A stretch of 51,350 nucleotides of DNA from IMG/VR virus record IMGVR_UViG_2690315831_000003, one strand, 5' to 3'. Origin of the DNA: a virus (lineage: Duplodnaviria > Heunggongvirae > Uroviricota > Caudoviricetes). Under the pieces are notes generated by a model. It worked only from the letters and a program-made list of their open reading frames with translations, was not told the DNA's origin and made no database searches. Shown here piece by piece: positions 1 through 41,600 of the stretch. Numbering within the stretch: position 1 is the first letter of the stretch; every line of letters begins with the position of its first letter. Made by a program: the position numbers and the translations under genes.

Positions 1-1131
1 TCAAATGACCAGTTTTTTCCACTCTTTACCGCGTACATCGTTGTAAATATCGGTCATTTTTTGATTCGAATGACCCAGCAAAATTTGGGTATCAATTCCC
101 TGCTCCCTGAACAATCGCTCTGATAAAGATCTCTGCTCATGGAAAGAGGGTGGAGTGCCATTAGCGCGCCAGTTGTAATCCACAGAATCCCGGGCTTTTT
201 TAAATGCAACTGTCAACGTTGCTGGCTTAACCATCCCGCCGCGCTTAGCTGTCCCTTTAGCATGATGGTGGTGCAATAACCACGGACTAAGAACGCAATC
301 GCGACAGGATGACACTACATCATCCAGGGTGAGATTTAATTTATCGCAACGCAGAGCCAGAGGGATGGCAATCCGGGTTCCTGTTTTTTGCTGTTCGACA
401 TGAAGATAACCATCCCTGATATCCGAAAATTTCATTTTGCAAATATCTGAAAGGCGCTGGCCTGTCATCAGCGCCAGCAGCATACCACGTTGTAAAAAGT
501 AACCATCCTTTTCCGCTGCATTATAAATCATCATCCACTCATCAAAGGTCAGTCGTTGCCGTGATATCCGTACCTGTGGTTTTTTTGCCGATTCTGCAGG
601 GTTAAAGCCTGGCGAGACATCGCCCGTTTGCTGGGCCTCCCGGAAAACATCAATCAGTACTTTCCTGAAAATTTGTCCCATTCTGTTATGTCCTTTTGCC
701 TTGTAATCTTCCAGCACCGATACCACATCTTTTACGGTTATGGCATCTAATGGTCTGGTACCAAAACGTTCATCAAATACCCTGAGAGGGGATGCTTTCT
801 GTTTCAGTGTGTTGAGTTTGATCTCTCCGTTTTCATATCTTTCCTGTTGAATTTTTCGGTAACTATTCAGAAAAACAGAAACGGTTGATGAACCACCGGT
901 ATCACGAATAATTTTCTCCTGCAGAGTGAGCATTTGTTCCATTTGTTGCCTGGCAAGACGGCTGTTCGCTTCTGCTGCAATAGCTTCTGCCTGTTTCTGG
1001 TCAATACTGCCGAGCCCGTGATTTTTTCCTGTTATGGGATGCCTGTAACGCCAGTAAACTTTGTTATTTCTTTTGTCAAAATACGGAGATAATCCCGGAA
1101 CTTCAGTTTTATATTTTCGTGGGCGCGCCAT
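1..1131 (-). CDS. int: Tyrosine-type site-specific integrase
   Basis: 376-aa ORF ending exactly at window start; position next to an excisionase-like gene; typical phage integrase length and basic N-terminal arm. Confidence 0.85.
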   Translation of the reverse strand: MARPRKYKTEVPGLSPYFDKRNNKVYWRYRHPITGKNHGLGSIDQKQAEAIAAEANSRLARQQMEQMLTLQEKIIRDTGGSSTVSVFLNSYRKIQQERYENGEIKLNTLKQKASPLRVFDERFGTRPLDAITVKDVVSVLEDYKAKGHNRMGQIFRKVLIDVFREAQQTGDVSPGFNPAESAKKPQVRISRQRLTFDEWMMIYNAAEKDGYFLQRGMLLALMTGQRLSDICKMKFSDIRDGYLHVEQQKTGTRIAIPLALRCDKLNLTLDDVVSSCRDCVLSPWLLHHHHAKGTAKRGGMVKPATLTVAFKKARDSVDYNWRANGTPPSFHEQRSLSERLFREQGIDTQILLGHSNQKMTDIYNDVRGKEWKKLVI

Positions 1132-4173: not shown

Positions 4174-4362
4174 TCACTGCTGCCCTCCGAAAATGCCAAG
4201 TTTAATAAGGGCAATTCTGGAGAGAATGGAATTATCATTGAGAAGATAAGGCTCATATTTTCTCATCCTGATGGCGTCCTCAGTAAACTCCCGGTTACTG
4301 AGCAGAATACCAATATTAAAACACCCTTCAGACGTATTAACGTTTGGTAGTGACGTTTCCAT
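4174..4362 (-). CDS. dicB: DicB-like cell-division inhibitor
   Basis: 62-aa ORF METSLPNVNTSEGCF... closely matches recalled Qin DicB N-terminus MKTLLPNVNTSEGCFEIG... Confidence 0.75.
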   Translation of the reverse strand: METSLPNVNTSEGCFNIGILLSNREFTEDAIRMRKYEPYLLNDNSILSRIALIKLGIFGGQQ

Positions 4363-4539
4363 TATCGCGTCCTCAACAATGAATTTTGTGATGTGGTGCC
4401 TGGTGCCTCCAGGTGACGTTAACCAGTTAACAATTAACGCCGGATTGTTAGTTGATGTCTGTTACGCCAGTAAAAGACCGCTTGTTTTAACTGTTCCGCG
4501 TGCGCTTAGCCGCATTCACCGCATCACAAAATACACTTT

Positions 4540-4578
4540 AAAAATGGCGGATATCCATTTCCGCCGAATCACCAGAAA
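4540..4578 (-). ncRNA. dicF: DicF-like small RNA immediately upstream of dicB
   Basis: Minus-strand reads UUUCUGGUGAUUCGGCGGAAAUGGAUAUCCGCCAUUUUU: DicF-like 5' seed followed by stem-loop and U-run; downstream spacer also resembles the recalled dicF-dicB spacer. Confidence 0.5.
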
Positions 4579-4890
4579 AGTGATAACAGAGGTTGTTGTG
4601 GCGGTGTTGTCACTCAGGCGTATGGTCAACCTGACAACCCGGTGCATTTTCTGGAGCAATGGAGGAAGCCCCAGCCATACTTACCGCCGCGCCATTTCGC
4701 GGATTGCCACAACCGGAAGCGCACGATCGAATTACATTTAACGACAACATATACAGAGAGACTAACTTCGCCGAGCGCTTTCGTGTTGTGTGCCTGCTTT
4801 TAACCACGTCAGGCGAGGTGGACCTGTTATTCCCCAACAACAAGGAGCTTGTTAATCTGGATATCCCCAACAACAATAAGAGTATTGAAT

Positions 4891-5406
4891 GTGATCGCTG
4901 AATTAACGGCAGCAATGACGGCTATTCGTGAAACCGCTCAGATTACAAAACTAATGAACGAGGCAAAAACTCAAGCTGAAGTAAATGCGGCTATTGGTGA
5001 ACTGAACTCAAAGCTTGCATCTATTCAGCACGAATGCGTGTCTCTCGTTGAGCTGGTGAGCACTTATCAAGAAATAAATGCTTCTCTCAAAGCTAAAATT
5101 GCAGAATTTGAAAACTTTGAGGCTCAGACGGAAGGTTATATCCTTAACCAACTTGAGTCGGGAACTTTTGTGTACTCGAAGGAGGTAACCGTGAACGGCG
5201 GCAGCATAATCATGCATCTTTGTCCAAAATGTTTTGGACAAAAGATAGTATCGATACTTCAACCATTCCCGGTTAGAGAACATGAGTTTTTTCATAAAAG
5301 CAGGTGCCTCTACTGTGAAAATCAGTTTCTTATGAATAAAAATCCGGATTATGTATCGCCTCCATCTATTGAGGAGTTGGCCAGAAAACTGAACGGCAAT
5401 CTGTAG
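4891..5406 (+). CDS. Hypothetical coiled-coil protein with C-terminal CxxC...CxxC zinc ribbon; low-GC cargo gene oriented against the leftward early operon
   Basis: Long ORF in AT-rich DNA; GTG at 4891 with AAGAG upstream (track start 4849 is TTG; ATG alternatives 4915, 4954); motifs CPKCFGQK and CLYCENQF. Confidence 0.45.
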   Translation: MIAELTAAMTAIRETAQITKLMNEAKTQAEVNAAIGELNSKLASIQHECVSLVELVSTYQEINASLKAKIAEFENFEAQTEGYILNQLESGTFVYSKEVTVNGGSIIMHLCPKCFGQKIVSILQPFPVREHEFFHKSRCLYCENQFLMNKNPDYVSPPSIEELARKLNGNL

Positions 5407-5519
5407 ATTGTTACTGTTATGGATATCCAGATTGTTAAAGAGCATGCCGGATGCTTGCTTGTGTCCGGCGCGTGTGCACCAGTTCTCCCCGTGGAGGATT
5501 CCTTAACTACCAGACTTCA

Positions 5520-5672
5520 TTAGTCAGAGTTTCTTGCTAACCAGCGACGCGCGCCAGCTTCAGTTTTAAACGTTTTGCTTCTGGTATACGTCATCGCGGT
5601 AAACGTGCCGTCCTGGTTGGGGAATACTCCGCATACCAGAGATTCGTTGTTGCCAAGATTGAGCGTATCCAT
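5520..5672 (-). CDS. Small YdfA-like early protein (50 aa)
   Basis: Minus-strand ORF MDTLNLGNNESLVCGVFPNQDGTFTAMTYTRSKTFKTEAGARRWLARNSD with GAGG RBS 6 nt upstream; below the 60-aa cutoff of the ORF track. Confidence 0.45.
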   Translation of the reverse strand: MDTLNLGNNESLVCGVFPNQDGTFTAMTYTRSKTFKTEAGARRWLARNSD

Positions 5673-5829
5673 GTTGACCTCATTTGCCCTTAACGCCGGG
5701 TCGCGGAACTAAAAACCTGCTGCGCTGTTATACAAAGTGTTCCCGCCGTCATGTTCATACGCCTCGGGCTGGCTACTTAACCCCTGACCACTGCCTGGTA
5801 ACTCGAAGTATTGCCTGGCGTTCTGTGGG

Positions 5830-5967: not shown

Positions 5968-6387
5968 TCAGGAGGCTTTTTGTTTTTTCTTTCGCGCTAA
6001 TTCTTCATAAATTGCGTTGTACTTCTGTTTTTTCTCCTCAAGAGTTTTTAAAAGTTCATCAGTTTCACTGTCAGGGAGTTCATCAAGAAGTTCAATGATG
6101 ATTTTTTGCTTCGGACTTAACTCCTGATAGAAACGCAGGCTTCCGCTTTCTTCAGTGTCCTCCCCCAGAAGGTAAGTTGGTGTTGTTCCGATAAGTGCTG
6201 CCAATTCTTTCAGTTTCTCTCGACGGGGAATTGCCTCTCCATTAAACCATTTACTAACCGCTTTGGGTGTTAGCTTCATTCGACGGGCAATTTCTGCCTG
6301 CCTTCCGTGTTGTTCAAAGCCAGCATTTTCACAGGCTAGCGCAAGCCTGCTGGCGAACTCTTTACGCGCTTCATCTTCATGAACCAT
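5968..6387 (-). CDS. Prophage repressor, DicA-like (HTH only, no S24 peptidase domain)
   Basis: 139 aa; N-terminal HTH segment; C-terminal acidic LP-rich helix resembles recalled DicA C-terminus; divergent from cro-like gene. Confidence 0.8.
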   Translation of the reverse strand: MVHEDEARKEFASRLALACENAGFEQHGRQAEIARRMKLTPKAVSKWFNGEAIPRREKLKELAALIGTTPTYLLGEDTEESGSLRFYQELSPKQKIIIELLDELPDSETDELLKTLEEKKQKYNAIYEELARKKKQKAS

Positions 6388-8764: not shown

Positions 8765-9481
8765 ATGGAAACCGTATTTGACGCACTGAAAGCACTGAAA
8801 AGAGCCTCTTCACAGGTAGTGGCGGCCCGCCTTGGAATCAGCCGTGAAGATGCGGTCAACGAACTGTGGAAACTGAAGCGCCGTGGTGAAGCGGATAACA
8901 AGGGGTCGATGTGGTGGCTGACTCAGGCAGGTGAAAGTGAACCAGTGTCACCGGTACCGAAAGTGACAGCGCAAATGCTGACTGAGGCGATTGAACAACA
9001 TGGCCCACAAACGGCGGATGAGCTGGCACTTATGTTCGGGATTACCTCCCGCCGGGCGAATTCATCGCTGGCCATGGCAATCAGCAAAGGGCGTCTGATT
9101 CGCGTAAATCAGGGCGGTAAATTTCGTTACTGCATACCGGGCGCTGATTTACCGGCAGAGCCGGAAGCTGCATCCGTAGCGGAAACCGATGGTAAAGCCT
9201 TTCCTCAGCCAGCAGGTGTTGCGTTACCAGTCCAGGAAACGACGACACAGGAAGAAATGAAAACAGAAATCGTGGAAGACATTGTGAAGTTACAGCCATC
9301 GGTCACCGAAACGAAAGCAGATGACCTGATTCTACCATCGCTGCATGTGGCTAACCGCGAGCTGCGCCGGGCAAAAGGTCAGGTTCAGAAGTGGGAGCGA
9401 GTCTGCGCCGCGCTGCGGGAGCTGAACAAGTGCCGGGATATTCTCCGGGATATTACCGCCACCAGAGAACAGCAGCGGTGA
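8765..9481 (+). CDS. Hypothetical protein, possibly tandem winged-helix
   Basis: ATG 8765 preceded by GGAGG; acidic central linker. Confidence 0.55.
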
Positions 9482-9795
9482 GTGGGTGGAAGACGTGGTG
9501 CCGGGCTGAAATTCTGATACTCCGGCAGTGCGCGGGAACAATGAAGGTAAAAAGCATTGGCGCACTTATCGGACGAACTGAAGCGGCAGTGAGAACGAAG
9601 GCACGGGAGTTGGGCATCAGCATGATGTTACGTGGTGATTTTCACCCGTCGGCAAAATATTCTCAGCGTGATATTGAGCTGGCGCGGCAACTGCATCAGA
9701 GAGGCATGCAAAGAAGGGAAATTGCCAGAAAATTAGGCATGCCGCTGCGCATAGTGAATAACTACGTTTATTTCGACAGGAGGGTTCAGGCGTGA
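9478..9795 (+). CDS. Small HTH DNA-binding protein
   Basis: GTG start overlapping the upstream stop (GTGA coupling); two HTH-like segments ([14 protein letters not shown] and [12 protein letters not shown]). Confidence 0.5.
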
Positions 9796-10097
9796 GGGTG
9801 AGCATTTATATCGCCGGTCCAATGACGGGATATGAAAATTTCAACCGCGAGGCGTTTCACAGGGCGGAAGAAGCACTGAAACGGGAAGGGCATACCGTTT
9901 TAAACCCGGCAGTACTTCCGGACGGGCTGACTCAGCCGCAGTACATGGATATTTGCATGGCAATGATTCGTTGTGTGGATGCGGTTTATATGCTGAAAGG
10001 CTGGCAGCGATCGGCAGGCGCTAAGGCAGAACTGGCACTGGCGGAGAAACTGGGACATGCGGTTATTTTCCAGGAGGCAACCAGTGAGCGAAATTAA
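9792..10097 (+). CDS. DUF4406-type / nucleoside 2-deoxyribosyltransferase-like protein
   Basis: N-terminal motif VSIYIAGPMTG typical of this fold; GTG start overlapping the upstream stop. Confidence 0.55.
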   Translation: MRVSIYIAGPMTGYENFNREAFHRAEEALKREGHTVLNPAVLPDGLTQPQYMDICMAMIRCVDAVYMLKGWQRSAGAKAELALAEKLGHAVIFQEATSERN

Positions 10098-10246
10098 TTA
10101 CCAGGAGCTACGGCAGGTGAAAGAGAAAGCATAATCCAGATCTGAATAATTAAAATCAGCACTGTAAATAAAATTTAATCCTTAACCGGAGGGATTTCTG
10201 CACCCTCAGAACATCAGGAGACCGCCAGAAAGGGCGGTAATGAAAA

Positions 10247-32906: not shown

Positions 32907-33128
32907 ATGGCAAAGATCCGATATCTGCAGGGCACGCATGATGCCCGGGCCGGGGATATCCGTGATGTGGCACAGCCGTGTGCGGAGGTGCTGGTTCGCC
33001 TGGGAAAGGCGGAGTACATCACGGTGCGACGTCCGGCAGGTCAGAAAAAGAAACGTGATGCGGAGCATGGCGAATGTGGAACCTTTTACGGCGAACCCGA
33101 AAAAACCAGAAATCAGGACGTGACGTAA
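32907..33128 (+). CDS. Possible small protein between capsid and portal genes
   Basis: 73-aa ORF preceded by AGGAGG and a hairpin; overlaps the portal start. Confidence 0.3.
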   Translation: MAKIRYLQGTHDARAGDIRDVAQPCAEVLVRLGKAEYITVRRPAGQKKKRDAEHGECGTFYGEPEKTRNQDVT

Positions 33129-35659
33129 GAGAGGCGGGCTGGACCAGCCTGTTTCAGGCGGTGGCTGAGCCCTTTTCCGGCGCCTGGCAGCAGGGCGTGA
33201 AAGCCGATCCTGAAGCCGTCCTCTCCTTTCATGCGGTGTTTGCATGTATTTCGCTGATATCCCAGGATATCGCCAAAATGCGGCTGCGTCTTATGCAGAC
33301 GGATGCGCATGGGATACGCAGGGAAACGCGCCGGGGGGATATTGCCCGCCTCTGTCGTCGCCCCAATGCGCAGCAGAACCGCATTCAGTTTTTTGAACTG
33401 TGGCTGAACGCCAAACTGCGTCACGGCAATACGGTGGTGCTGAAAATCCGTAATGCCCGGGGGCAGATCAAAGAACTGCGTATTCTGGACTGGAACCGGG
33501 TTGAACCTCTGGTGGCGGATGACGGCGAGGTGTTCTACCGCATCACGCCGGACCGGAACTGTGGGATCACTGAGGCGGTGACGGTGCCTGCCCGGGAAGT
33601 GATCCACGATCGGTTTAACTGTTTTTTTCATCCGCTTATAGGGTTGCCGCCGGTGTATGCCGCCGGGCTGGCGGCCACGCAGGGGCATCATATTCAGGAA
33701 AATTCGACGTCTTTTTTCAGAAATGGCGGCAGGCCGTCCGGGGTGATTGAGATCCCCGGCAGTATTACGGAAGAAAATGCGAAAAAACTGAAGAGCAACT
33801 GGGACAGCGGGTATACAGGCGAAAATGCGGGGAAAACGGCCATTCTGAGCAACGGGGCAAAATACAACCCCACGACGTTTTCACCGGTGGATGCGCAGAC
33901 GGTGGAACAACTGAAGATGACCGCTGAAATTGTCTGTTCGGTGTTCCGTGTCCCGGCCTACAAGATTGGCGTGGGACAACCGCCTTCCAGTGACAATGTG
34001 GAGGCGCTGGAGCAGCAGTATTATTCCCAGTGCCTGCAGACGCTGATTGAGTCCATTGAACTGTTACTGGATGAGGCGCTGGAAACGGGGGAAAACGAGA
34101 GTACGGAATTTGATGTCACCACGCTGCTGAGAATGGACAGTGAGCGGCGCATGAAAACGCTGGGGGATGCGGTGAAAAATACGCTTCTCACGCCCAATGA
34201 GGCCCGTAAACGGGAGAACCTGCCGCCCCTGGCCGGCGGTGATGCACTGTATCTTCAGCAGCAGAACTACAGTCTGGAGGCGCTGTCCCGTCGTGATGCC
34301 CGTGAAGATCCGTTCGCGTCGACCGGGAAAACGGCCTTAGCGCAACCGCCTGACGGCGCATCTGACGGTAATAAGGCAATCAGTGAAACAGAGCATGATG
34401 CGGTGAAAGCGATGTTCAGGGGGGATACTGCGAAAATGACGGAACGGGAACTGTCCATTATCCGTGCGCTGGGTGAAGAATTTTCCGCAGTGCTGGCGGA
34501 TTTACAGCGCACATTTGAGGGGAAAATAGCCGCGCAGGCACAAACGTTTGAAGAAAAACTGGCTTCCCTGTCTGTGGTATTACAGAAGTGCGTGACGGGC
34601 GATGATGTGCGTCCGATGCTTGAGCAGATGGTGAAGGAGGCGGTAAGCCATATCCCTGTTCCGCGTGACGGTCGTGACTACGATCCGGAAGTACTGCAGA
34701 AGGCGGTGAATGACGCGGTCGCAAATATTCCACAGCCAGCGGACGGTAAAAGTCTCACCCCGGATGATGTGCGTCCGATGCTTGAACAGATGGTGAAGGA
34801 GGCGGTAAGCCATATCCCTGTTCCGCGAGATGGTCGTGACTATGATCCCGATGTTCTGCAGAAGGCGGTGAATGATGCGGTCGCAAATATTCCTGTACCG
34901 GCGAACGGTAAAAGTATCACTCCCGATGATGTGCGTCCGATGCTTGAGCAGATGGTGAAGGAGGCGGTAAGCCATATTCCTGTTCCGCGCGACGGTCGTG
35001 ACTATGATCCCGATGTTCTGCAGAAGGCGGTGAATGATGCGGTCGCAAATATTCCGCTGCCGGCAGACGGTAAAAGTATCACCCCGGATGATGTGCATCC
35101 GATGCTTGAACAGATGGTGAAGGAGGCGGTAAGCCATATTCCTGTTCCGCGTGATGGTCGAGACTACGATCCGGATGTTCTGCAGAAGGCGGTTCTGGAT
35201 GCGGTGAGTGCCCTGCCGGCTCCGCAGGACGGGCGTGATGCCACGGCACTGGAAATACTCCCCGCCATTGACGATCAAAAATCCTTTCCCCGGGGCACGT
35301 ATGCCACACACCAGGGCGGACTCTGGCGGGCGTATGAAAAAACGCACGGGATGCGGGGATGGGAATGCCTGGTTGACGGGGTGGCGGATATTGACGTCAG
35401 TATGACGGGGGAACGGTTGTTCTCTGTGGTGGTCCGGCAGAGCAGCGGTCAGCGTACGGAAAAAACATTTTCCCTGCCGGTGATGCTCTACCGCGGTGTG
35501 TTCAGAGCCGGTGAAACCTACCACCCCGGCGATACAGTGACATGGGGGGGCTCGCTGTGGCACTGCAACAGTATGACCGGTGATAAACCCGGAGAAGCTC
35601 ATTCATCAGCCTGGACCCTGGCTGCAAAACGTGGGCGGGATGCAGGAGGCGGAAAATGA
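33074..35659 (+). CDS. Portal protein with C-terminal tandem-repeat extension
   Basis: 861 aa; N-terminal portal-like region (AVFACISLISQDIAKMRLRL); four ~54-aa repeats DDVRPMLEQMVKEAVSHIPVPRDGRDYDP... Confidence 0.75.
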   Translation: MWNLLRRTRKNQKSGRDVREAGWTSLFQAVAEPFSGAWQQGVKADPEAVLSFHAVFACISLISQDIAKMRLRLMQTDAHGIRRETRRGDIARLCRRPNAQQNRIQFFELWLNAKLRHGNTVVLKIRNARGQIKELRILDWNRVEPLVADDGEVFYRITPDRNCGITEAVTVPAREVIHDRFNCFFHPLIGLPPVYAAGLAATQGHHIQENSTSFFRNGGRPSGVIEIPGSITEENAKKLKSNWDSGYTGENAGKTAILSNGAKYNPTTFSPVDAQTVEQLKMTAEIVCSVFRVPAYKIGVGQPPSSDNVEALEQQYYSQCLQTLIESIELLLDEALETGENESTEFDVTTLLRMDSERRMKTLGDAVKNTLLTPNEARKRENLPPLAGGDALYLQQQNYSLEALSRRDAREDPFASTGKTALAQPPDGASDGNKAISETEHDAVKAMFRGDTAKMTERELSIIRALGEEFSAVLADLQRTFEGKIAAQAQTFEEKLASLSVVLQKCVTGDDVRPMLEQMVKEAVSHIPVPRDGRDYDPEVLQKAVNDAVANIPQPADGKSLTPDDVRPMLEQMVKEAVSHIPVPRDGRDYDPDVLQKAVNDAVANIPVPANGKSITPDDVRPMLEQMVKEAVSHIPVPRDGRDYDPDVLQKAVNDAVANIPLPADGKSITPDDVHPMLEQMVKEAVSHIPVPRDGRDYDPDVLQKAVLDAVSALPAPQDGRDATALEILPAIDDQKSFPRGTYATHQGGLWRAYEKTHGMRGWECLVDGVADIDVSMTGERLFSVVVRQSSGQRTEKTFSLPVMLYRGVFRAGETYHPGDTVTWGGSLWHCNSMTGDKPGEAHSSAWTLAAKRGRDAGGGK
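34602..35240 (+). repeat. Four in-frame ~160-bp tandem repeats inside the portal gene
   Basis: Repeat starts at 34602, 34763, 34925, 35078. Confidence 0.8.
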
Positions 35660-38650: not shown

Positions 38651-41600
38651 ATGGCGACGTTACGTGAACTGATTATAAAAATTTCGGCAAATTCACAGTC
38701 ATTCCAGTCGGAGATCCAGCGGGCGTCCCGTATGGGCAGTGAATATTACCGGACCCTGCAGAATGGCGGACGTCAGGCTGCTGCGGCAGCCAGGGAGCAG
38801 CGCCGGGCTCTGGCTGAGCTGAACAGCCAGTTGACGGAAATCCGCGCTTCAGCTGTCGGAATGACCGGTGCGTTTGCCGGTGTCTTTGCCACCGGACACC
38901 TGATTTCGCTGGCGGATGAATGGGGTTCCGTGAATGCCCGTCTGAAACAGGCGTCGCAGTCATCGGATGAATTTGCGTCATCACAGAAAGTGCTGATGGA
39001 TATCAGCCAGCGGACAGGCACCGCATTTTCGGATAATGCGGCCCTGTTTGCCCGCTCTGCCGCCTCAATGCGTGAATATGGTTACAGTGCTGATGATGTG
39101 CTGAAGGTGACGGAGGCCATTTCGACAGGGCTGAAAATTTCCGGTGCCAGTGCGGCAGAGGCGGGTTCGGTGATCACCCAGTTCAGCCAGGCGCTGGCAC
39201 AGGGGGTGTTGCGCGGCGAGGAATTTAATTCGGTCAATGAAAGTGGGGACCGGATCATTCGCGCACTGGCTGCAGGCATGGGCGTGGCCCGTAAGGATCT
39301 GAAGGCGATGGCGGACGATGGTCAACTGACGGCGGATAAAGTCGTTCCCGCGTTAATCAGCCAGCTGGGGATATTGCGTGATGAATATGCAGCCATGCCG
39401 GAAACGGTTTCCGGTAGTATCACGAAGGTGGAAAACGCCTTTATGGCCTGGGTGGGCGGCGCGAATGAGGCCAGCGGAGCGACGAAAACGCTCTCCGGCG
39501 CGCTGAACGGTGTGGCCGGAAATATTGATACCGTGGCAACAGCTGCGGGTGTGCTGGTTGCTGTCGGGGTGGCCCGGTACTTTGGTAATCTGGCTTCCGG
39601 AGCGATGTCTGCCACGGCAGGACTTGTGACCGCTGCACGTAATGAAGTGGCACTGGCTGAGGCCCAGTTAAGGGGAACGCAGATTGCCACTGCGCGGGCA
39701 AGGGCAGCCGTGTACCGGGCTCAGCAGGCTGTGGCGGCAGCCCGCGGGACTGAGATGCAGATTGCCGCAGAGGCCCGTCTGGCGGTCACACAGGAACGCC
39801 TGAACAGAAATATTGCTGCCAGAACCGCCGCCCAGAATGCGCTGAACAGTACAACGGCGGTGGGCTCACGTCTGATGAGCGGTGCGCTGGGACTGATTGG
39901 AGGCGTACCCGGACTGGTGATGCTGGGAGCTGCCGCATGGTACACGCTGTACCAGAATCAGGAACAGGCCAGGGAGTCTGCGCACCAGTATGCACTGACG
40001 ATTGATGAAATCGCGCATAAAACGCCATCAATGTCTCTGCCTGAAGCCTCAGATAATGAAGGGCGAACACGGGAGGCGCTGACAGAGCAGAACCGGCTGA
40101 TTGATGAGCAGGCCAGCCGGGTGAAATCCCTGCAGGAAAAAATCGCCGGGTATCAGTATGTGCTGGCTAATCCGGGCTGGACGACCGGTAACGGCTTCAT
40201 GATAAACCATCTGACATCGGTGAAAACTGTAACGGAAGAGCTTGCTCAGGCAACAGAGCAGTTTGCTGTTGAGCAGTCCCGTCTGGCACAGATGCAGGAA
40301 AAAGCGCAGTCCATTCAGGATGTGCTTGCCGGACTGGAAGAGCGCCGTGTTGTGTTAATTCGTCAGCAGGCGGCAGAGCAGAATAAAGCGTATCAGTCAC
40401 TGCTGATCATGAACGGTCAGCATACGGAATTCAACCGCCTGCTGGGGCTGGGTAATGAACTGCTGCAACAGCGTCAGGGACTGGCGAGTGTACCGCTGCG
40501 ACTGCCACAGGCCACTCTGGATGATAAACAGCAGGGCGCCCTGAATAACACAGAGCGTCAACTTGCCCTGTCCCGGCTGAAAGGGGAAGAAAAAGAGCGT
40601 GCCCGGCTGGGGTATGCGGCGGATGACCTTGGTCTGGTGGGGGATACGTATCAGGAGGCGAGGCAGCGTTACATCCGTAATTCGATGGAAGCCTGGCGCA
40701 ATAATGAGGCGAATAAACCCAAATCCCGGGCCGGAAAATCAGGGGCGGAAAAAGCGGAAGACAGTTTTTCCCGTCTGCTGAAGCAGCAGAAGGAACAACT
40801 GGCACTGGCCGGGAAGAATACAGAACTGGCAAAACTGAAATACCAGACCTCGCAGGGCGAGCTGAAAACCCTGACGGAGATACAGAAGCAGGAGCTGCTG
40901 CGCAATGCTGCCCTGATTGACCAGAAGAAAATCCGGGAGCAGTTACGGGCCCGGGAGGAGGCTCTGAAAAATGATAATGCAGACGAAAGGGCATCAAATG
41001 ACGCTGAGCTGCTGGGGTACGGGCAGGGTGAGCGGGTCCGTGAACGGATGCGGGAGCTGCAGCAGATTCGTGACGGCTACCGCCAGAAGGATGCGGACCT
41101 GCAGTCTCAGTATCAGACAGGGGATATCAGTGAGGATTTTTACAGACAGGCGCTGGCGCAGAATGCGCAGTATCTGAGTGAACGACTGAAAGACCAGGAG
41201 GCTTTTTATGCCGAATCGGATGCGCAGCGTGCTGACTGGCAGAAAGGGCTGCAGGAAGGGCTAAGTAACTGGGTGGACAGCGCATCAGATTACGCTTCAC
41301 AGGCAGCACAGCTTGCGACAGACGGTATCTCAGGGATGGTGAATAACATCACGGAGATGCTGAACGGAAATAAAGTGGAATGGCGCAGCTGGGCTGCATC
41401 AATCCTGCAGGAAATATCAAAAGTTCTTATGAATGCGGCCATTGTCAACGGCATTAAGATGGCGGCAAACAGTATGTCCGGTGCAGGAGGATTTTTCGGC
41501 AGTATAGGCAACTGGCTGGGTGGCGCGGTGGCAAATGCAAAAGGCGGCGTTTATACCTCGGCAAACCTGAGTGCATACAGTAACAGTATTGTGGACACGC

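What the first reader, a model, noticed from the sequence alone, without database searches (positions are those of the whole stretch)
4579..5525. Low-GC, opposite-strand cargo gene inside the leftward early operon (zinc-ribbon coiled-coil protein)
The leftward operon (YdfA-like, DicF-like sRNA, DicB-like) is on the minus strand, but between the YdfA-like ORF and dicF sits a plus-strand, AT-rich ORF (4891..5406) encoding a ~100-aa coiled coil followed by CPKCFGQK(N20)CLYCENQF. The strand inversion and composition suggest independent acquisition; this repressor-proximal slot is where lambdoid phages carry exclusion genes (rex, sieB). A direct repeat TCCCCAACAACAA occurs twice just upstream (about 4830-4875).
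Basis: partly seen in the sequence, partly recalled or inferred. Interest (0 to 1): 0.6.

Follow-up and report, generated by a model that had tools for sequence, protein, structure and literature searches.

The report
Prophage Rip1-type pore defence gene cassette
The flagged opposite-strand gene is real and belongs to the recently described Rip1 family of prophage proteins, which kill an infected cell by forming a membrane pore when they sense ring-shaped packaging proteins of an invading phage. It sits on a small mobile cassette that reuses the promoter and antisense-RNA control region of the classic sieB exclusion gene.

Summary
A plus-strand, low-GC ORF (4891..5406, GTG start, 171 aa; 41% GC against 52% for the window) lies antisense inside the leftward early operon of an ompW-integrated lambdoid prophage, preceded by an exact 13-nt direct repeat.

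It is not an orphan. A family profile matches PDB 9oox, phage HK446 Rip1 ("ring interacting pore 1") bound to T6 small terminase, at E=2.9e-23 over nearly full length. An AlphaFold model (pLDDT 89) has 9oox as its only significant fold match. The four Zn-ribbon cysteines are invariant.

The gene rides on a ~660-bp cassette (4784-5443). The same cassette occurs at 94% identity in an unrelated phage backbone, is absent from K-12 Qin at this junction, and is present in 648 of 5426 complete E. coli genomes.

The ~110 nt upstream, including the direct repeat, is the sieB-type control module. It aligns with the annotated P22 sieB promoter and RNA start, and its reverse complement aligns with the sequenced P22 sas antisense RNA. 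HK446 rip1 has the same module in the same slot.

Verdict: a new, untested member of a known kind. A side result is that the same module precedes at least 29 unrelated cargo gene families.

The parts
4784..5443 (.). Mobile 'moron' cassette: control module, Rip1-family ORF and conserved 3' element.
   Evidence: 94.3% nt identity over 661 nt to phage PhiR49_1 (L005 4342-5002), whose flanks are unrelated. Relative to K-12 Qin, window 4802-5446 replaces ~33 bp between Qin locus positions 2630 and 2663. Present at >=80% coverage in 648 of 5426 complete E. coli genomes. GC 41.2%.
4891..5406 (+). Rip1-family gene (171 aa, GTG start).
   Evidence: phrog_1244 at 1.9e-57. phmmer against PDB 9oox Rip1 gives 1.1e-7 and the family profile gives 2.9e-23. 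Foldseek's top hit is 9oox_M: E 5.6e-7, probability 1.00, TM 0.71. Codon-position substitutions 39/18/56.
4894..5127 (+). N-terminal helical half (residues 2-79). By homology this is the amphipathic, pore-forming part.
   Evidence: AF2 helices 2-23 and 28-79. No transmembrane segment; helical hydrophobic moment 0.27-0.40 over the first ~30 residues. The role is taken from the summary of the Rip1 paper.
5140..5340 (+). C-terminal beta-rich Zn-ribbon domain (residues 84-150). By homology this is the part that contacts the terminase/portal ring. Cys codons are at 5221-5223, 5230-5232, 5305-5307 and 5314-5316.
   Evidence: Six AF2 strands, pLDDT 92-96. C111, C114, C139 and C142 are invariant in 27 homologues and align with the CxxC...CxxC of HK446 Rip1.
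4775..4895 (-). sas-like antisense RNA region, the reverse complement of the promoter and 5' UTR of the ORF.
   Evidence: The published P22 sas RNA (127 nt, PMC13397905 Table 2) maps to L016 1487-1613, that is, from the sieB ATG leftwards. The window aligns along its whole length. In 32 sequences the conserved hairpin is canonical in 415/416 pair cells on this strand against 383/416 on the other, with 33 G.U cells against 1 A.C.
4792..4822 (+). Near-invariant 31-nt block GCCTGCTTTTAACCACGTCAGGCGAGGTGGA, which corresponds to the 3' part of sas.
   Evidence: One copy in the window against 0 expected. Found upstream of P22, lambda, HK620 and HK446 cargo genes and in more than 120 viral contigs.
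4828..4858 (+). sieB-type promoter, inferred by alignment only. The -10 is about TAATCT 4853-4858 and the predicted RNA start about 4863-4865.
   Evidence: Aligned column by column with the promoter (1541-1571) and 'sieB RNA start site' (1578) annotated in P22 record BK000583. The consensus scan does not call it.
4831..4843 (+). Direct repeat copy 1. It lies over the -35 region, and in sas it forms the 5' arm and GGGG loop of the covarying hairpin.
4864..4876 (+). Direct repeat copy 2. It lies at the predicted 5' end of the mRNA, followed by the Shine-Dalgarno AAGAG (4878-4882).
   Evidence: P22, lambda, HK620 and HK446 carry an analogous pair, ACCCCTACAG x2, at the same two positions.
5408..5443 (+). 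Conserved 3' element. It contains the right arm of a 26-nt inverted repeat whose left arm is 4854-4879; the element continues as GGATATCCAGATTGTTAAAGAGC.
   Evidence: The inverted repeat is 81% complementary and brackets the ORF. The element is conserved in homologous cassettes of E. coli, Salmonella, Citrobacter and Klebsiella, where a canonical terminator hairpin follows it. The window lacks that hairpin.

Best explanation
Window 4784-5443 is a self-contained accessory-gene cassette inserted antisense into the pL early-left operon of a lambdoid prophage, between ydfA and a DicF-like sRNA.

Shown here:
- Its ORF encodes a 171-aa member of the Rip1 (ring interacting pore 1) family.
- The cassette is mobile between phage backbones.
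- The upstream ~110 nt belongs to the sieB-type control module.

Inferred from the characterised homologues:
- The protein is made in the lysogen from the sieB-type promoter and is harmless on its own.
- When another phage infects and makes its ring-shaped small-terminase or portal oligomer, the C-terminal Zn-ribbon domains of about 12 Rip1 copies bind around the ring.
- This brings the N-terminal amphipathic helices together into a pore in the inner membrane. The cell is permeabilised and dies before progeny are finished, which is abortive infection.

Inferred from P22 sieB/sas:
- Leftward transcription across the cassette yields a sas-like antisense RNA covering the 5' UTR, Shine-Dalgarno and start codon.
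- That RNA would shut off Rip1 translation when the prophage itself, or a phage carrying the same module, enters lytic growth. This would spare the prophage from its own weapon.
For: Family membership:
- Profile of 27 homologues against PDB 9oox Rip1: E=2.9e-23, profile positions 5-151 against chain residues 15-160 of 164. The single sequence gives 1.1e-7.
- AF2 pLDDT 89.1. Foldseek against the PDB returns only 9oox ('HK446 Rip1 in complex with T6 small terminase') as significant: probability 1.00, TM 0.71.
- BLASTP: 27% identity to HK446 gp37 (2e-12) and 30% to DMS3-25 (3e-21).
- The four Cys are invariant.

Family function, as summarised in the review:
- Rip1 is an anti-phage protein of a P. 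aeruginosa prophage that is not toxic alone.
- Escapers carry mutations in the portal or small terminase.
- Cryo-EM shows a 12-mer around an 11-mer terminase ring.
- Pore formation was shown with liposome dye release and by microscopy.
- The primary source is Patel et al. 2026, Nature 651:1060. Searches agree with this summary.

Context:
- DMS3-25 lies antisense between the small and large terminase genes, as described for Pseudomonas Rip1.
- HK446 rip1 and HK620 hkaP lie antisense between cIII/ral and N.
- Homologues in Salmonella, Citrobacter, Edwardsiella and Klebsiella all lie next to prophage repressors, antisense to an early operon.

Cassette mobility.

Control module:
- The P22 sieB promoter and RNA start align with window 4828-4865.
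- P22 sas equals the reverse complement of this region.
- Strand-specific covariation and G.U pairs support a minus-strand RNA.
- HK446 rip1 carries the same module.
Against: - Identity to the characterised Rip1 proteins is only 27-30%, and nothing from this clade has been tested as far as I could find.
- I could not read the primary paper, so the mechanism rests on a review summary, a meeting report and the PDB entry title.
- The amphipathicity of the N-terminal helices is moderate and not significantly above shuffled sequence: 114 of 1000 shuffles reach it.
- The sieB-type promoter is not detected by the consensus scan, and its position is inferred by alignment only.
- No convincing promoter for the sas-like RNA is visible on the minus strand in P22 or here. 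How the RNA is made is therefore open: from its own promoter or by processing of the pL transcript.
- The canonical terminator present after the cassette in relatives is missing in the window.
- PADLOC (2023), Pfam and NCBIfam have no model for the family.
Confidence: 0.8

Rival explanations
1. The protein is a true Rip1 homologue by descent but serves the resident phage itself rather than defence. It could be a lysis-timing or packaging-checkpoint factor that binds the phage's own terminase or portal ring.
For: - The family binds conserved virion-assembly rings, and the prophage encodes its own small terminase and portal.
- In Pseudomonas phages the gene sits between the terminase genes.
Against: - In every locus examined the gene is antisense to the lytic operon around it. 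It also carries a sieB-type promoter, which fits expression in the lysogen.
- It moves as a cassette between unrelated backbones and is absent from close relatives of this prophage, so it is dispensable for the phage.
- Characterised members defend against other phages.
Confidence: 0.1
2. The coiled-coil plus Zn-ribbon protein is a nucleic-acid-binding regulator, or a generic membrane exclusion protein of the SieB kind, and the similarity to Rip1 is only a shared small fold.
For: - Zn ribbons are common in DNA/RNA-binding proteins.
- The gene occupies the sieB slot and uses sieB control sequences.
Against: - The match to Rip1 covers both halves of the protein at E=2.9e-23 and is the only fold match below E=0.28.
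- SieB is an unrelated protein: it forms a separate cluster in the all-against-all BLAST.
- The window protein has no hydrophobic segment (maximum Kyte-Doolittle mean 1.13).
Confidence: 0.04
3. The real gene is the overlapping minus-strand ORF 5008..5445, which is co-oriented with the pL operon. The plus-strand ORF would then be a chance open frame.
For: - It is 145 aa and co-directional with ydfA and dicB.
- The corresponding frame stays fairly open (104-152 codons) in homologues.
Against: - It has no hit in Pfam, PHROGs, NCBIfam or PADLOC.
- The substitution pattern puts most changes at plus-frame position 3, which is position 1 of the minus frame.
- The plus-frame protein has thousands of homologues (3333 clusters), a confident fold and a solved relative. 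RefSeq annotates the plus-strand gene.
- Openness of this antisense frame is the usual shadow-frame effect, with position 2 opposite position 2.
Confidence: 0.01

Closest known systems
Rip1 (ring interacting pore 1) of Escherichia phage HK446, gp37 (PDB 9oox; Patel et al. 2026, Nature 651:1060)
   Same: - Size: 164 aa against 171 aa here.
- Architecture: N-terminal helical half, then a C-terminal beta domain with CxxC...CxxC.
- Near full-length profile match (2.9e-23) and the top fold match.
- Same genomic slot, antisense in the pL operon near N and the repressor.
- Same upstream block, repeat and promoter module.
   Different: - Only 27% identical.
- The repeat motif of the control module differs: CCCCAACAACAA here, CCCCTACAG in HK446.
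- The trigger range of this clade is untested.
- Here the flanking genes are ydfA and a DicF-like sRNA rather than ral and N.
Pseudomonas Mu-like phage DMS3-25 / D3112 orf25 / JBD30 homologues (the position described for P. aeruginosa prophage Rip1)
   Same: 30% identity over 153 residues (3e-21). Also an opposite-strand moron.
   Different: [quoted passage not shown] No sieB/sas-type module is upstream.
HK620 HkaP (annotated 'putative superinfection exclusion protein'), also in HK629 and HK630
   Same: Same family (about 30% identity by tblastn; HkaP against 9oox gives 2.4e-10). Same sieB slot and same upstream module.
   Different: A separate branch of the family. To my knowledge it is annotated by position only.
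SieB / Esc / sas of phages P22 and lambda
   Same: - Same slot.
- Homologous promoter, RNA-start region and antisense sas sequence.
- Also an abortive-infection-type exclusion function expressed from the prophage.
   Different: - SieB is an unrelated protein. From my own knowledge it is membrane-embedded, which I did not test.
- There is no evidence here for an Esc-like internal start. The in-frame Met10 and Met24 are not conserved.
Other sensors of phage packaging proteins (Avs1-3 for the large terminase; TerI for the small terminase)
   Same: They sense conserved DNA-packaging proteins and trigger cell death (PMC13601566).
   Different: Avs proteins are large STAND NTPases with separate effector domains. 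Rip1 is a single small protein that is both sensor and pore.

Membership tests
Rip1 (ring interacting pore 1) | Sequence homology to a characterised Rip1 over most of its length | tested here: met
   phmmer 1.1e-7. Profile 2.9e-23, positions 5-151 against residues 15-160 of 164. BLASTP 2e-12 to HK446 gp37 and 3e-21 to DMS3-25.
Rip1 (ring interacting pore 1) | Fold: N-terminal long helices followed by a compact C-terminal beta domain, superposable on the solved Rip1 chain | tested here: met
   AF2 pLDDT 89.1. Foldseek 9oox_M: E 5.6e-7, probability 1.00, TM 0.71 normalised to the target, 120 aligned columns. The next hit has E=0.28.
Rip1 (ring interacting pore 1) | Four conserved cysteines (CxxC...CxxC) in the C-terminal domain | tested here: met
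   Invariant in 27 homologues, and aligned with the cysteines of HK446 Rip1, HkaP and DMS3-25. Zinc binding itself was not tested.
Rip1 (ring interacting pore 1) | Amphipathic N-terminal helix able to form the pore | tested here: inconclusive
   The region is helical and lacks a transmembrane segment. Hydrophobic moment is 0.27-0.40 in the first 30 residues, but the mean over residues 1-80 is reached by 114 of 1000 shuffles.
Rip1 (ring interacting pore 1) | Prophage-encoded, stand-alone, opposite-strand accessory gene | tested here: met
Rip1 (ring interacting pore 1) | Binds ring oligomers of phage small terminase or portal as a ~12-mer | not testable with these tools
   Known only for HK446 Rip1 with T6 small terminase (PDB 9oox title).
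Rip1 (ring interacting pore 1) | Protects against phage by membrane permeabilisation, and is non-toxic without its trigger | not testable with these tools
   Reported for the family. No data for this clade.
SieB superinfection exclusion protein | Homology to the P22 or lambda SieB protein | tested here: not met
   SieB proteins and Rip1-like proteins form separate clusters in the all-against-all BLAST of cargo proteins. No hydrophobic segment in the window protein.
sieB-type control module (P_sieB promoter plus sas antisense RNA) | Sequence homologous to the P22 sieB promoter, RNA start and sas RNA, immediately upstream of the cargo start codon | tested here: met
   blastn finds 81% identity to the region annotated as the P22 sieB promoter. 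Full-length alignment. sas maps exactly to this region in P22.
sieB-type control module (P_sieB promoter plus sas antisense RNA) | Conserved RNA structure on the sas (minus) strand | tested here: met
   Hairpin with compensatory changes. 415/416 against 383/416 canonical cells, and 33 G.U against 1 A.C.
sieB-type control module (P_sieB promoter plus sas antisense RNA) | The antisense RNA is actually made and switches cargo translation | not testable with these tools
   Shown for P22 only, in literature cited.
   No hit at E<=1 or E<=10. The region is nevertheless syntenic, shares the 5' TTTTCTGGTGA, and has a terminator at 4565-4546.

The most novel reading that the evidence does not exclude
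The sieB/sas module (31-nt block, covarying hairpin and repeat) is a portable, antisense-RNA-gated expression socket of lambdoid phages.
- It precedes at least 29 unrelated cargo families. Only two have a known function, SieB and Rip1, and both are abortive-infection systems.
- The other cargoes would then be undiscovered exclusion or defence genes.
- The sas-type RNA would be the general device that silences them when the carrier phage goes lytic. For Rip1 this would prevent triggering by the phage's own terminase or portal ring.
Probability: 0.4. Interest if true: 0.65.

Novelty: new member of a known kind. Interest (0 to 1): 0.4.

Why it matters
- **Annotation.** A gene labelled 'hypothetical protein' in 648 of 5426 complete E. 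coli genomes, including O157:H7 strains, can now be read as a Rip1-family pore-forming abortive-infection gene. No Pfam, NCBIfam or PADLOC model catches it.
- **Phage work.** This bears on predicting phage susceptibility of STEC and other E. coli. It also gives a diverged (27-30% identity) family member for asking which terminase or portal rings are recognised.
- **Regulation.** The work ties the new Rip1 family to the 30-year-old sieB/sas regulatory paradigm. The same promoter and antisense-RNA module drives both, which suggests a testable answer to how a prophage avoids being killed by its own ring sensor.
- **Discovery.** The near-invariant 31-nt block gives a simple sequence handle for finding further candidate defence genes in lambdoid prophages.

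Tried and rejected
- **Protein libraries.** Pfam, NCBIfam and PADLOC gave only sub-threshold coiled-coil noise or nothing. PHROGs gave a family of unknown function.
- **Literature.** Searches for 'hkaP', 'phrog_1244' and 'ring interacting pore' found nothing useful. The primary Rip1 paper is not held.
- **Minus-strand ORF 5008..5445.** Rejected as a shadow frame.
- **Rfam.** No family covers the upstream element or sas, even at the P22 and lambda loci.
- **Upstream block as a plus-strand element.** I first considered a plus-strand 5' UTR pseudoknot, a CRP-like site or an UP element. G.U/A.C asymmetry and the published sas sequence show that the selected structure is on the minus strand.
- **Perfect 11+11 palindrome inside the ORF (5219-5242).** It is not conserved in close homologues encoding the same residues, so it is a by-product of the CPKCFG codons.
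- **Esc-like internal start.** In-frame Met10 and Met24 are not conserved.
- **Promoters.** The consensus scan finds no plus-strand promoter for the ORF. I saw no convincing minus-strand sas promoter in P22 or in the window.
- **Amphipathicity statistics.** Inconclusive.
Full report
**1. The observation**

The window begins with a lambdoid prophage integrated next to ompW. It is 99.9% identical over the tested 1301-bp stretch (window 4400-5700) to E. coli STEC435. The leftward genes, all on the minus strand, are:
- integrase, 1..1131;
- excisionase;
- an 823-aa exonuclease;
- a DUF1482 protein;
- DicB, 4174..4362 (Pfam 6.9e-33);
- YdfA/DUF1391, 5520..5672 (5.4e-30);
- a cI-like repressor, 5968..6387.

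Between DicB and YdfA lies a plus-strand ORF, 4891..5406. It has a GTG start preceded by AAGAG and encodes 171 aa. RefSeq annotates exactly this ORF as a hypothetical protein.

The ORF is 41.3% GC against 52.4% for the window, which places it in the lowest 4.4% of equally sized windows. The exact 13-nt direct repeat is at 4831-4843 and 4864-4876.

Rfam does not recognise a DicF. However, minus strand ~4588->4546 is syntenic with K-12 dicF, keeps its 5' TTTTCTGGTGA, and ends in a terminator hairpin.

**2. Which strand codes**

- The plus-frame protein matches phrog_1244 at 1.9e-57. The overlapping minus-strand ORF 5008..5445 matches nothing in four libraries.
- Against a 71%-identical Salmonella homologue, substitutions fall 39/18/56 on plus-frame codon positions 1/2/3. 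The same pattern holds for four other homologues.
- Position 3 of the plus frame is position 1 of the minus frame, so the minus ORF is a shadow frame.
- The family search found 118 homologues across Enterobacterales. An exhaustive profile search found 3333 clusters at 50% identity with E<=1e-3, almost all 145-180 aa and matched end to end.

**3. What the protein is**

- The single sequence hits one solved structure, PDB 9oox chain L, 'ring interacting pore 1 (Rip1)', at E=1.1e-7.
- A profile of 27 homologues raises this to 2.9e-23 over profile positions 5-151 and chain residues 15-160 of 164.
- In that alignment the four cysteines are invariant, as are G91, V94 and Y95.
- An AlphaFold2 model built on the alignment is confident (pLDDT 89.1). 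It has helices 2-23 and 28-79, then a six-stranded domain at 84-150.
- Foldseek against the PDB returns 9oox as the only significant match: probability 1.00, TM 0.71 on the target, 28% identity. The entry is titled 'Cryo-EM structure of the Escherichia phage HK446 Rip1 in complex with the Enterobacteria phage T6 small terminase'. The next hit has E=0.28.
- Pairwise identity is 27% to HK446 gp37 and 30% to DMS3-25. HK620 HkaP is a further branch.

**4. What Rip1 does**

I could not obtain the primary paper, Patel, McCarthy, Taylor et al. 2026, Nature 651:1060. A 2026 review summarises it (PMC13434031):
- Rip1 is an anti-phage protein of a P. aeruginosa prophage, encoded between the small and large terminase genes.
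- It is not toxic by itself.
- Infected lysogens round up.
- Escapers map to the portal (Pseudomonas phages) or the small terminase (E. coli phages).
- Cryo-EM shows an 11-mer small-terminase ring surrounded by 12 Rip1 subunits. The C-terminal half contacts the ring and the N-terminal amphipathic helix forms a pore.
- The complex releases dye from liposomes.
- Homologues are widespread in proteobacterial prophages.

A meeting report and a Nature Communications paper agree. The position of DMS3-25, antisense between DMS3-24 and the large terminase, matches that description.

Features I could test are met, except that the amphipathicity of the N-terminal helices is only moderate and not statistically distinctive. 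Ring binding, pore formation and protection cannot be tested with these tools.

**5. The cassette**

- Window 4784-5443 is 94% identical to a segment of Escherichia phage PhiR49_1. That phage has a different early region (YfdP/YfdQ type) and carries the gene directly beside cI.
- Compared with K-12 Qin, ydfA (86%) and the dicF-dicB region (77%) are conserved. Window 4802-5446 replaces ~33 bp of Qin, and ydfB and ydfC are absent.
- A related ompW prophage, PPompW_132418, lacks the gene.
- The cassette occurs at >=80% coverage in 648 of 5426 complete E. coli genomes, including O157:H7 at 97.3%.
- Homologues in Salmonella, Citrobacter, Edwardsiella and Klebsiella are all in prophage immunity regions, antisense to the early operon that surrounds them.

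Independent acquisition is therefore shown.

**6. The upstream region and the direct repeat**

The ~110 nt upstream of the start codon are better conserved than the protein. This holds even in HK620, where the protein is about 30% identical.

*Match to the P22 sieB promoter.* A blastn search of phage genomes matched the P22 region annotated 'sieB: promoter'. The P22 record gives the promoter, the mapped sieB RNA start and the sieB and esc coding regions. A nine-sequence alignment places three features in the window:
- the promoter at about 4828-4858;
- the RNA start at about 4863-4865;
- the two repeat copies over the -35 region and at the 5' end of the mRNA.

P22, lambda, HK620 and HK446 have an analogous pair, ACCCCTACAG x2, at the same positions.

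*Match to the P22 sas RNA.* A 2026 small-RNA sequencing paper prints the P22 sas antisense RNA (127 nt; PMC13397905). It maps exactly to the reverse complement of this region, from the sieB ATG leftwards through the near-invariant block. The window's minus strand 4895->4775 aligns along its whole length.

*RNA structure.* RNAalifold in the sas orientation predicts a hairpin in which repeat copy 1 forms the 5' arm and a GGGG loop. The hairpin shows compensatory changes. Over 32 distinct sequences, its pairs are canonical in 415 of 416 cells on the minus strand against 383 on the plus strand. There are 33 G.U cells against 1 A.C cell. This asymmetry is expected only if the minus-strand RNA is the selected structure.

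*Link to the characterised Rip1.* HK446 rip1 itself lies between a ral-like gene and N, with the same block and repeat upstream. The characterised E. coli-phage Rip1 and the window gene therefore share both slot and control module.

In P22, sas switches translation of sieB (reviews quoted). By analogy I infer three things, none tested here:
- Leftward transcription through the cassette silences the Rip1-like gene.
- This is attractive because the prophage's own terminase and portal rings could otherwise trigger the protein.
- The GGGG loop may nucleate pairing with the CCCC at the 5' end of the mRNA.

I saw no convincing promoter for the antisense RNA in P22 or here. Whether it has its own promoter or is processed from the pL transcript remains open.

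**7. A wider pattern**

- Over all loci held there were 136 occurrences. The first same-strand ORF downstream falls into at least 29 unrelated clusters: SieB (29), Rip1-like including HkaP (23), and many small proteins. The ten representatives I scanned are all of unknown function or unmatched in PHROGs.
- There are two architectures. The first has ~80 nt with the direct repeat and is seen with SieB, Rip1-like and a few other cargoes. The second has ~45 nt consisting of the block, a covarying hairpin and a Shine-Dalgarno sequence.
- In nearly all of the 81 deduplicated loci, the genes to the left of the block are on the opposite strand.
- SfIV carries an 89%-identical copy of the window's module in front of an unrelated 144-aa protein.
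- Rfam has no family for this RNA.

I regard this as the most novel lead, but it is a side result.

**8. Unexplained**

A 26-nt inverted repeat (4854-4879 and 5408-5433, 81% complementary) brackets the ORF. Its right arm, GGATATCCAGATTGTTAAAGAGC, is conserved downstream of the homologous cassettes. There it is followed by a canonical terminator that the window lacks. On the leftward transcript the two arms could pair across the whole antisense gene. I did not test this.

**9. Verdict**

- The gene is a diverged, untested member of the recently described Rip1 family. It is carried on a sieB-type cassette.
- It is a new member of a known kind and of moderate interest.
- The link to sas and the cargo-swapping module deserve follow-up.

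Noticed in passing
window 4792-4822; loci L019-L138, L002, L016, L139, L141: A near-invariant 31-nt block, GCCTGTCTTTTNACCACNTCAGGCTCGGTGG (the 3' part of P22 sas RNA), precedes at least 29 unrelated same-strand cargo families in lambdoid phages. SieB and Rip1-like proteins are the only two with a known function. Rfam has no model for this RNA.
   Followed up: partly
window 4854-4879 and 5408-5433: A 26-nt inverted repeat (81% complementary, core AATCTGGATATCC) brackets the ORF exactly. The right arm is conserved after the homologous cassettes of other genera. Its role is unknown; possibilities are long-range pairing on the leftward transcript, an RNA-processing site, or the trace of an inverted duplication of part of sas.
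   Followed up: partly
window 4546-4588 (-): A short DicF-like sRNA. It is syntenic with K-12 dicF and shares the 5' TTTTCTGGTGA, but the middle of DicF is missing and the terminator is a different, shorter hairpin (GGCGGAAATGGATATCCGCC followed by a T run). There is no Rfam DicF hit, only a 15-bit sub-threshold AgvB match at 4540-4609.
   Followed up: partly
window 4330-4547 (-): A sub-threshold Rfam match to the sRNA STnc100 (33 bits against a gathering score of 47, E=1.1e-4) in the dicF-dicB spacer, starting right after the DicF-like terminator.
   Followed up: no
window 5447-5527 compared with L006 (K-12 Qin) 2166-2542: ydfB and ydfC of the Qin-type operon are absent here. The related ompW prophage PPompW_132418 has ydfC with only the 31-nt block upstream of it and a 13-codon remnant ORF where a cargo gene would be (L018 2501-2620).
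   Followed up: partly
window 5407-5470: The canonical terminator hairpin (GCGTCC...GGGCGCTTTTTT) that follows the cassette in E. coli PhiR49_1, Salmonella, Citrobacter and Klebsiella relatives is replaced in the window by a weak AGCAT-GCCGG-ATGCT hairpin with no T run.
   Followed up: no
window 33074..35659 (+); L140 16978-19562: The portal ORF is intact in the window (861 aa) but annotated as frameshifted in the closely related STEC435 genome. Coordinates of the two also drift by ~1.25 kb, so the window is not from that exact strain.
   Followed up: no
L140 (STEC435 copy of this prophage) 9058-10212, 2278-2418, 39631-39786, 34430-34591: Other cargo of the prophage as annotated in RefSeq: an OmpC-type porin gene inside the tail module, two Hok/Gef toxin genes, tRNA-Arg and tRNA-Ile, and a valyl-tRNA synthetase fragment.
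   Followed up: no
window 5219-5242: A perfect 11+11-nt palindrome, TTTGTCCAAAA-TG-TTTTGGACAAA, lies over the CPKCFG codons. It is not conserved in close homologues with the same residues, so it is probably a chance by-product.
   Followed up: yes
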